A stretch of DNA of 64,000 bases from NCBI GenBank assembly GCA_951406725.2, contig OX597831.1, positions 11,594,001-11,658,000 of the forward strand, written 5' to 3'. A program made the translations under genes and the position numbers. The stretch comes from Octopus vulgaris. Its lineage: Eukaryota. The notes beneath the pieces are model-generated. The model had not been told where the DNA came from. It did not search any database and was given only the letters and a program-made list of their open reading frames with translations. Within the stretch, counting starts at the first letter, position 1, and the number at the start of each line of letters is the position of its first letter. Shown piece by piece: positions 29,891 to 30,150 of this stretch.

Positions 29891-30150
29891 TGGAAGGTGT
29901 TTATAAGCCATTTAAGAAACAGACAAAAGCCGTTCGATTCACTTCAACATTTAAGTTTAATTTGTCAAAATATTTTCGTCGCTAAAATCCGCGACCTGTT
30001 CACTGACAAAGTCCGTGCTGCAGCACAGACTTTGTCAGTGAACAGGTCGCGGATTTTAGCGACGAAAATATTTTGACAAATTAAACTTAAATGTTGAAGT
30101 GAATCGAACGGCTTTTGTGTGTTTCTTAAATGGCTTATAAACACCTTCCA
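29891..30150. repeat. 260-bp spacerless palindrome (130-bp arms, 2 mismatches); probable inverted PLE pseudo-LTR
   Basis: 29891-30020 is the reverse complement of 30021-30150. Confidence 0.93.
30031..30080 (+). ncRNA. Variant minimal hammerhead motif (G3-C8 core)
   Basis: uuuguca-GUGAACA-g-gucgc-ggauuuua-gcgac-GAA-AAUAUU-U-ugacaaa; mirror copy at 29961-30010 on the minus strand. Confidence 0.65.

What the first reader, a model, noticed from the sequence alone, without database searches (positions are those of the whole stretch)
29891..30150. 260-bp palindrome carrying hammerheads with a swapped G3-C8 core
Seen: each arm has a 7-bp helix I (uuuguca/ugacaaa), the core GUGAACA instead of CUGANGA, one extra G, a 5-bp helix II, GAA, a palindromic AAUAUU helix III and a UUU cleavage triplet. 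Established: C3-G8 form a Watson-Crick pair in the active hammerhead, so G3-C8 preserves it; minimal PLE hammerheads with a palindromic helix III cleave as dimers. Inference: this is a rare natural core variant that CUGANGA searches would miss, located in an inverted PLE pseudo-LTR.
Basis: partly seen in the sequence, partly recalled or inferred. Interest (0 to 1): 0.7.

Follow-up and report, generated by a model that had tools for sequence, protein, structure and literature searches.

The report
Swapped-core hammerhead in octopus retroelement
The 260-base palindrome is two short ends of a very common octopus-type Penelope-like jumping gene joined head to head, each carrying a hammerhead-shaped RNA motif whose two paired core letters are swapped throughout the family; it likely still self-cuts weakly in the intact element, but cutting is untested and this copy is probably inert.

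Summary
Confirmed: 29891-30150 is a palindrome (128 of 130 pairs), each arm holding a type I hammerhead layout with G3-C8. It is a Penelope-like element (PLE) insertion scar: two head-to-head 5'-truncated pseudo-LTR pieces in an (AAT)n tract, the left with a ~70-nt tail. An ATG 92 nt past the core starts an Octopus RT ORF whose full-length relatives end in GIY-YIG. G3-C8 is the family state: no other letter at 2% or more at positions 3 or 8 among 5,334 laid contigs from four organism labels; ribozyme variation is in loop II plus one wobble. Related PLEs carry the same motif at the same place with C-G, U-A or A-U, so all four Watson-Crick 3-8 pairs occur in one clade (13 of 13 aligned rows paired). 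Engineered G3-C8 is partly active in print; I found natural G3-C8 in no paper searched (Lunse 2017 unreadable). This scan noted G3-C8 before in other genomes, mostly protist PLEs. The arms lie on opposite strands and cannot form the cis dimer; cleavage is untested. New variant of a known kind.

The parts
29819..30022 (-). Left 5'-truncated PLE pseudo-LTR copy: hammerhead, ORF start and tail
30019..30150 (+). Right 5'-truncated pseudo-LTR copy, without tail, ending at ORF codon 7
30031..30080 (+). Minimal type I hammerhead motif, G3 30038, C8 30043, predicted cut after U17 30073
29961..30010 (-). Identical mirror hammerhead motif, G3 30003, C8 29998, predicted cut after 29968
30019..30022 (.). 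Head-to-head junction; TGCA shared by both copies (inferred microhomology of a template switch or fold-back)
   Evidence: sequence; similar junctions in other copies, tables 5, 7, 8
29819..29911 (-). First 31 codons of the PLE ORF (ATG 92 nt after G3); mirror ATG at 30130 on +
   Evidence: 87% over 30 aa to O. sinensis P0002; 19 of 24 identical to O. bimaculoides P0004
29819..29890 (-). About 70-nt PLE 'tail', present at one end only
   Evidence: family contigs cover it from 29825; ORF homology continues through it
29659..29821 (.). Left (AAT)n-type microsatellite flank, inferred target tract
30151..30263 (.). Right (AAT)n flank, same orientation as the left

Best explanation
The palindrome is an insertion scar of a high-copy Octopus Penelope-like retrotransposon, two 5'-truncated pseudo-LTR copies joined head to head in an (AAT)n tract, and each copy holds the family's minimal hammerhead motif with a G3-C8 pair that would keep the active-site tertiary pair and likely allows weak, dimer- or protein-assisted self-cleavage in the intact element's RNA. 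Shown: layout, PLE identity of the downstream ORF, family-wide G3-C8, covariation at 3-8 among relatives. Inferred (by analogy to the anole PLE, PMC11167929): the element's GIY-YIG nicked the AAT tract, RT primed at two internal sites in the ORF start (giving a tailed and an untailed end), copied through the uncut ribozyme and switched template at TGCA. Inferred: this locus is inert, because it lacks RT, the two motifs are on opposite strands, and read-through RNA would fold as a long hairpin. Untested: cleavage (about 0.65 that it cuts under some condition).
For: Layout matches published PLE min-HHRs: extra nucleotide between 9 and 10.1, G10.1-C11.1, palindromic helix III, U17 common (PMC4209133). 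ORF chain: window P0003 to P0002/P0004, P0002 74-222 to O. vulgaris P0005/P0020 (79%), P0020 to P0022 41% over 477 aa, full-length relatives of 1,030-1,116 aa with YVDD, a CxxxxCxxC linker and C-terminal GIY-YIG; 5151+177+3+3 contigs laid; none of 40 listed other-letter rows (1 hidden) is at positions 3 or 8 of either arm; rows inside the motif are loop II and 30076 A>G (U-A to U-G in helix I); loose-end consensuses of 29 and 23 contigs of another loop-II subfamily keep the same core. Relatives: 13 of 13 aligned rows pair at 3-8 (UA 6, CG 4, GC 2 = both window arms, AU 1); 15 of 16 in the wider list against a shuffled mean of 5.6. The Octopus RT groups 100/100 with loci carrying C-G (L001) and U-A (L003). 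C3G/G8C partly rescues an anole PLE hammerhead and is the only rescuing swap in a type III mutational scan. Inverted truncated copy, one-sided tail and microsatellite target are known PLE insertion features.
Against: No cleavage data; no end clustering at the predicted cut site among the 15 of 26 joints shown, and table 6 is empty (contigs cannot show RNA ends). Engineered G3-C8 is only partly active; min-HHRs cut poorly in vitro, and anole HHR cleavage is dispensable for insertion in vitro. The AAUAUU duplex is only -0.2 kcal/mol; the modelled dimer (-27.2) barely beats two monomers (-26.6); the 130-nt arm has a competing MFE fold. Some relatives carry further core departures (L003 A9C, L007 G5U, L001 U15.1-A16.1, L029 C3/A8 mismatch), so some copies are decayed. 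No single contig links this hammerhead to a whole RT-EN ORF; the link runs through overlapping gene models. Pfam hits are weak (RVT_1 E 0.004-0.03, GIY-YIG E 0.003, all below cut-off). X3, X9 and X10 may be the source sample; relatives are not independent.
Confidence: 0.8

Rival explanations
1. The motif is a hammerhead descendant that no longer cuts: the fold is kept as a protein-binding, splicing or folding element of the PLE 5' UTR, or simply spread with a burst of a family that had lost activity.
For: Cleavage is dispensable for in vitro insertion of the anole PLE, and no reads end at its cut site. Dimer energy is marginal. Copies retain the whole motif, so RT used uncut RNA (inference).
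Against: All other catalytic letters (U4, G5, A6, A9, G12-A14, A15.1-U16.1) are kept in the family, and a 3-8 Watson-Crick pair, which belongs to the active conformation, is kept through double changes across the clade.
Confidence: 0.15
2. The palindrome is a fold-back assembly artefact of one repeat copy.
For: No laid contig spans the whole stretch; the arms are 98.5% alike.
Against: Each arm has one private change from the family letter (29922, 30027); the ends differ (tail on one side only); other copies show head-to-head joints, and an X5 contig with 18 other letters crosses the centre. The motif's existence does not depend on the junction.
Confidence: 0.03
3. It is a fold-back DNA transposon (MITE) or a microRNA hairpin, and the hammerhead likeness is chance.
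For: Perfect inverted arms; Rfam microRNA models match, but at 47-50 bits against cut-offs of 85-100.
Against: The arms hold an RT ORF start; other copies have variably truncated inverted arms; the same motif sits at the same place in related PLEs.
Confidence: 0.02

Closest known systems
Minimal type I hammerheads of PLE pseudo-LTRs (Cervera and De la Pena 2014, PMC4209133), including the U3-A8 subtype
   Same: Type I topology, extra nucleotide 9/10.1, G10.1-C11.1, palindromic helix III, U17, position just upstream of the ORF start, possible 3' splice site just before helix I
   Different: G3-C8 instead of C3-G8 or U3-A8; 7-bp helix I (longer than the 4-5 bp reported for Schistosoma); no G3 core among the 9 'GUGA' places of their supplementary file 2
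Anolis Poseidon (PAc) hammerhead and its engineered C3G/G8C double mutant (Frangieh et al. 2024, PMC11167929)
   Same: Same swap, partly active; pseudo-LTR overlaps the ORF start; tail between two RT start sites; AT-rich target
   Different: There engineered, here natural and fixed in a family; different PLE clade; tail about 70 nt rather than 30-40
C-terminal-endonuclease PLEs with Zn-finger linker (Neptune/Nematis type; Craig et al. 2021, PMC8557442)
   Same: RT, cysteine linker, C-terminal GIY-YIG in relatives; inverted 5'-truncated copy; microsatellite target
   Different: Clade not placed against named references; this locus is only a two-end scar
Natural hammerhead core variants (Perreault et al. 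2011, PMC3088659)
   Same: Covariation of the 3-8 pair; U15.1-A16.1 variant (seen here in L001)
   Different: Section 8 reports only U3-A8 at this pair; G3-C8 and A3-U8 are not named there

Membership tests
Minimal PLE hammerhead (type I) | Literal CUGANGA core | tested here: not met
   G3 and C8; so filed as a variant, not as a canonical member
Minimal PLE hammerhead (type I) | Watson-Crick pair between 3 and 8 | tested here: met
   G-C; covaries in relatives, 13 of 13 rows
Minimal PLE hammerhead (type I) | U4 G5 A6 A9, G12 A13 A14, A15.1-U16.1, NUH | tested here: met
   UUU triplet
Minimal PLE hammerhead (type I) | Helices I and II, G10.1-C11.1, extra nucleotide 9/10.1, palindromic helix III | tested here: met
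   competing fold in the longer arm
Minimal PLE hammerhead (type I) | Located in a PLE pseudo-LTR, sense strand, upstream of the ORF start | tested here: met
   ATG 92 nt downstream; 78-154 nt in L001, L003, L007, L027
Minimal PLE hammerhead (type I) | Self-cleavage (dimer or protein-assisted) | not testable with these tools
   no assay; only contigs were laid
C-terminal EN+ Penelope-like element | ORF with PLE-type RT | tested here: met
   through overlapping homologs P0002, P0005/P0020, P0022, P0056; Pfam scores below cut-off
C-terminal EN+ Penelope-like element | C-terminal GIY-YIG with cysteine linker | tested here: inconclusive
   seen in relatives (P0057 Pfam E 0.003; alignment) and in the related O. 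vulgaris P0056, not in a protein of this exact family
C-terminal EN+ Penelope-like element | Inverted 5'-truncated copy, one-sided tail, AT-rich or microsatellite target | tested here: met
Neptune clade | RT tree placement with named Neptune elements | not tested
   no named references in session; tree is unrooted and lacks them
Non-LTR retrozyme | Head-to-tail tandem non-coding units with one hammerhead each | tested here: not met
   arms are head to head and include an ORF start; definition from abstract listings

The most novel reading that the evidence does not exclude
One clade of Penelope-like elements uses all four Watson-Crick pairs at hammerhead positions 3-8, and octopuses carry thousands of copies of an active G3-C8 hammerhead family that CUGANGA- and UUGANAA-based surveys have missed; this is natural covariation proof of the active-site tertiary pair and a natural series for asking whether PLEs tune cleavage down.
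Probability: 0.5. Interest if true: 0.55.

Novelty: new variant of a known kind. Interest (0 to 1): 0.42.

Why it matters
Hammerhead surveys use C3-G8 and sometimes U3-A8 descriptors (PMC4209133, PMC8557442), so G3-C8 and A3-U8 families would be scored as lacking a ribozyme. A high-copy family fixed for G3-C8, inside a clade showing all four pairs, argues that selection keeps the active-site pair in PLEs, which bears on the open question of whether PLE hammerheads need to cut. The chemistry is not new (the swap is known from mutants) and the palindrome is an ordinary PLE insertion form.

Tried and rejected
Own genome: none held, so no genome-wide copy count. Exact pattern scans of viral and metagenome contigs: no match. 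Viral scan with the RT alignment: none. Rfam: nothing at gathering score in the window; at E up to 10 only sub-threshold hairpin-type hits; no hammerhead hit in 13 related loci. Longer homologs of P0002 1-224 by word search: none; Atlas search gave nothing usable; Pfam has no family for the N-terminal region. No RNA holder is on record among the 24 listed runs; I laid only 4 of the 20 holders, none of those guessed to be RNA; expression is not addressed. Of 43 related loci, 18 reach an ORF end; no motif was found in L008, L009, L018, L022 (6-nt flank) and L033. Rows dropped before the 3-8 count: L003+1992, L021+843, L026+547 (inside ORFs), L029-2835, L040+640 (weak, off position), L030-575 (other layout); three of these are unpaired at 3-8. 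L001 and L027 were found by eye, not by the scan; alignment A3 leaves out L023, L027, L029, L036 and misaligns the right half of L001 and L002. Literature searches for natural G3-C8 (supplements) found only engineered examples; Lunse et al. 2017 is not held, supplementary file 1 of PMC4209133 was not searchable, only 2 of 30 term places in the Craig supplement were seen, and figures are not held.

Full report
Observation. The stretch 29891-30150 is its own reverse complement except for two pairs, and each arm holds the motif as described. A descriptor allowing any Watson-Crick 3-8 pair found only these two sites in the window. The 50-mer folds into helices I and II with z -3.4. In the 130-nt arm the MFE is a different fold, though the centroid keeps helices I and II. 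Rfam finds nothing at gathering score.

What the arms are. An ATG 92 nt after G3 (30130 on +, 29911 on -) opens a frame that, on the left copy, runs 31 codons before meeting the microsatellite. This peptide is the N-terminus of gene models from Octopus sinensis (P0002, 87% over 30 aa) and O. bimaculoides (P0004, 19 of 24). P0002 residues 74-222 match O. vulgaris P0005/P0020 at 79%, which run on into RT motifs and match P0022 at 41% over 477 aa. P0022 retrieves 93 proteins. [quoted passage not shown] So the arms are pseudo-LTR pieces of a C-terminal-endonuclease PLE (Neptune/Nematis type by motifs; clade not tested). The link to a whole ORF runs through overlapping models, not one contig. The host is Octopus-like; the species was not determined and no genome is held.

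Insertion anatomy. The left copy continues about 70 nt past the palindrome, and family contigs cover that part. The right copy stops at codon 7. Both flanks are (AAT)n in the same orientation. An inverted 5'-truncated copy and a one-sided tail are described PLE features (PMC8557442, passages). In the anole PLE the tail lies between two RT start sites and the nick prefers ATT (PMC11167929, parts 1-2 of 4). Other family copies show head-to-head joints: 11 of the 15 joints shown (of 26) touch the 30031/30010 boundary, and one X5 contig crosses the centre with 18 other letters. That boundary is partly set by where this copy's private letters break the alignment. Each arm has one private change from the family letter, which argues against a fold-back artefact.

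Is G3-C8 private? No. Twenty of 24 listed runs, under five organism labels, hold all 9 sampled words of the arm. I laid four runs, one each for labels A, B, D and E: 5151, 177, 3 and 3 contigs. None of the 40 other-letter rows shown (1 hidden; threshold 2%) falls on positions 3 or 8 of either arm. Inside the motif, rows lie only in loop II and at 30076, where A>G turns a helix I U-A into U-G. Loose-end consensuses of 29 and 23 contigs from a subfamily with another loop II keep the same core. Summed depth over the core is thousands of times that of single contigs, which suggests a high-copy family; the tool warns that this is no copy number. Three of the four runs may be the window's source.

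Homologous motifs. An RT alignment fetched 43 metagenome loci. Scans that left positions 3 and 8 free found sense-strand motifs of the same layout (extra purine, short helix II, palindromic helix III) beside the ORF ends. C-G occurs in L004, L019, L030, L036 and L001 (the last found by eye, with U15.1-A16.1). U-A occurs in L002 (both pseudo-LTRs), L003, L005, L007, L021 and L026. A-U occurs in L012 and L027 (right half imperfect, found by eye). Two minus-strand copies carry C-G (L023) and a C/A mismatch (L029). Twelve of the 18 loci that reach an ORF end have a sense motif; dropped rows are listed under Tried and rejected. On alignment A3 the 3-8 columns pair in 13 of 13 rows with all four types. 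In the wider list 15 of 16 pair, against 5.6 when shuffled (relatives are not independent). None of the 43 loci has G-C. The Octopus RT groups 100/100 with L001 (C-G), L003 (U-A) and P0022, so G-C likely arose within a clade that exchanges this pair repeatedly.

How it likely works. G8C alone slows cleavage 10^5-fold and C3G partly restores it (PMC8495972, passage). The swap is the one rescuing double mutant of this motif in a type III scan (PMC9901934, passages), and it partly rescues the anole PLE hammerhead, which needs the PLE protein to cut and is dispensable for insertion in vitro. Minimal PLE hammerheads cut only as dimers or with a lengthened helix III, and weakly (PMC4209133, parts 1-2 of 4). 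I infer a slow, dimer- or protein-assisted ribozyme in the intact element. The computed dimer gain is marginal. At this locus the motifs face away from each other on opposite strands, so they cannot pair helix III in cis, and a read-through RNA would form a 128-bp hairpin; the copy is probably inert. Side observation: one X5 contig shows a pyrimidine tract and AG about 14 nt before helix I, and 6 of 13 relatives have such a site within 22 nt of the core against 7% background (rule chosen after seeing the data). This fits the intron that ends at helix I in D. virilis Penelope.

Novelty. Natural U3-A8 is in print (PMC3088659, section 8; PMC4209133). My searches and supplement look-ups gave only engineered G3-C8 (also PMC3884650, passage) and no A3-U8. 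Lunse et al. 2017, the most likely place for an earlier record, could not be read, and figures are not held. Two cephalopod repeat papers mention Penelope but no ribozyme (PMC13282606, PMC8967140, passages). I also saw passages of PMC6765202, PMC6155905 and bioRxiv 10.64898/2026.07.22.740005 (its supplements not seen). Earlier unchecked notes of this scan report G3-C8 motifs in other genomes, mostly protist PLEs, and fold-back PLE scars in a shark-type genome; I did not test them. Verdict: an ordinary PLE scar carrying a real, family-wide and apparently unreported natural core variant; interest 0.42.

Noticed in passing
window minus strand, cores at 21410 and 47050; third at 21186: A second hammerhead-like repeat family: two 80%-alike copies with U at position 6 (C3-G8 kept, ACGU palindrome), and a more decayed motif 224 nt from the first on the same strand.
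   Followed up: partly
L012:2810 and L027:2325: A3-U8 cores in PLE pseudo-LTRs; not found in my paper searches.
   Followed up: partly
L001:4973: PLE hammerhead with C3-G8 but U15.1-A16.1; the contig also has a 105-nt tandem array next to the ORF start.
   Followed up: partly
L003:2497-2672: Closest relative has the same layout: U3-A8 motif (with A9C), ORF start 78 nt later, then a (TA)n microsatellite.
   Followed up: partly
window 29513-29660, 31219-31394, 31449-31507: Another dispersed repeat family ending in (TAA)n, SINE-like by recall only (families D17, D19); the PLE scar sits in the microsatellite behind one copy.
   Followed up: no
P0002 (O. sinensis gene model): The model fuses this PLE's first 222 codons to a methyltransferase domain, probably a mis-annotation.
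   Followed up: no
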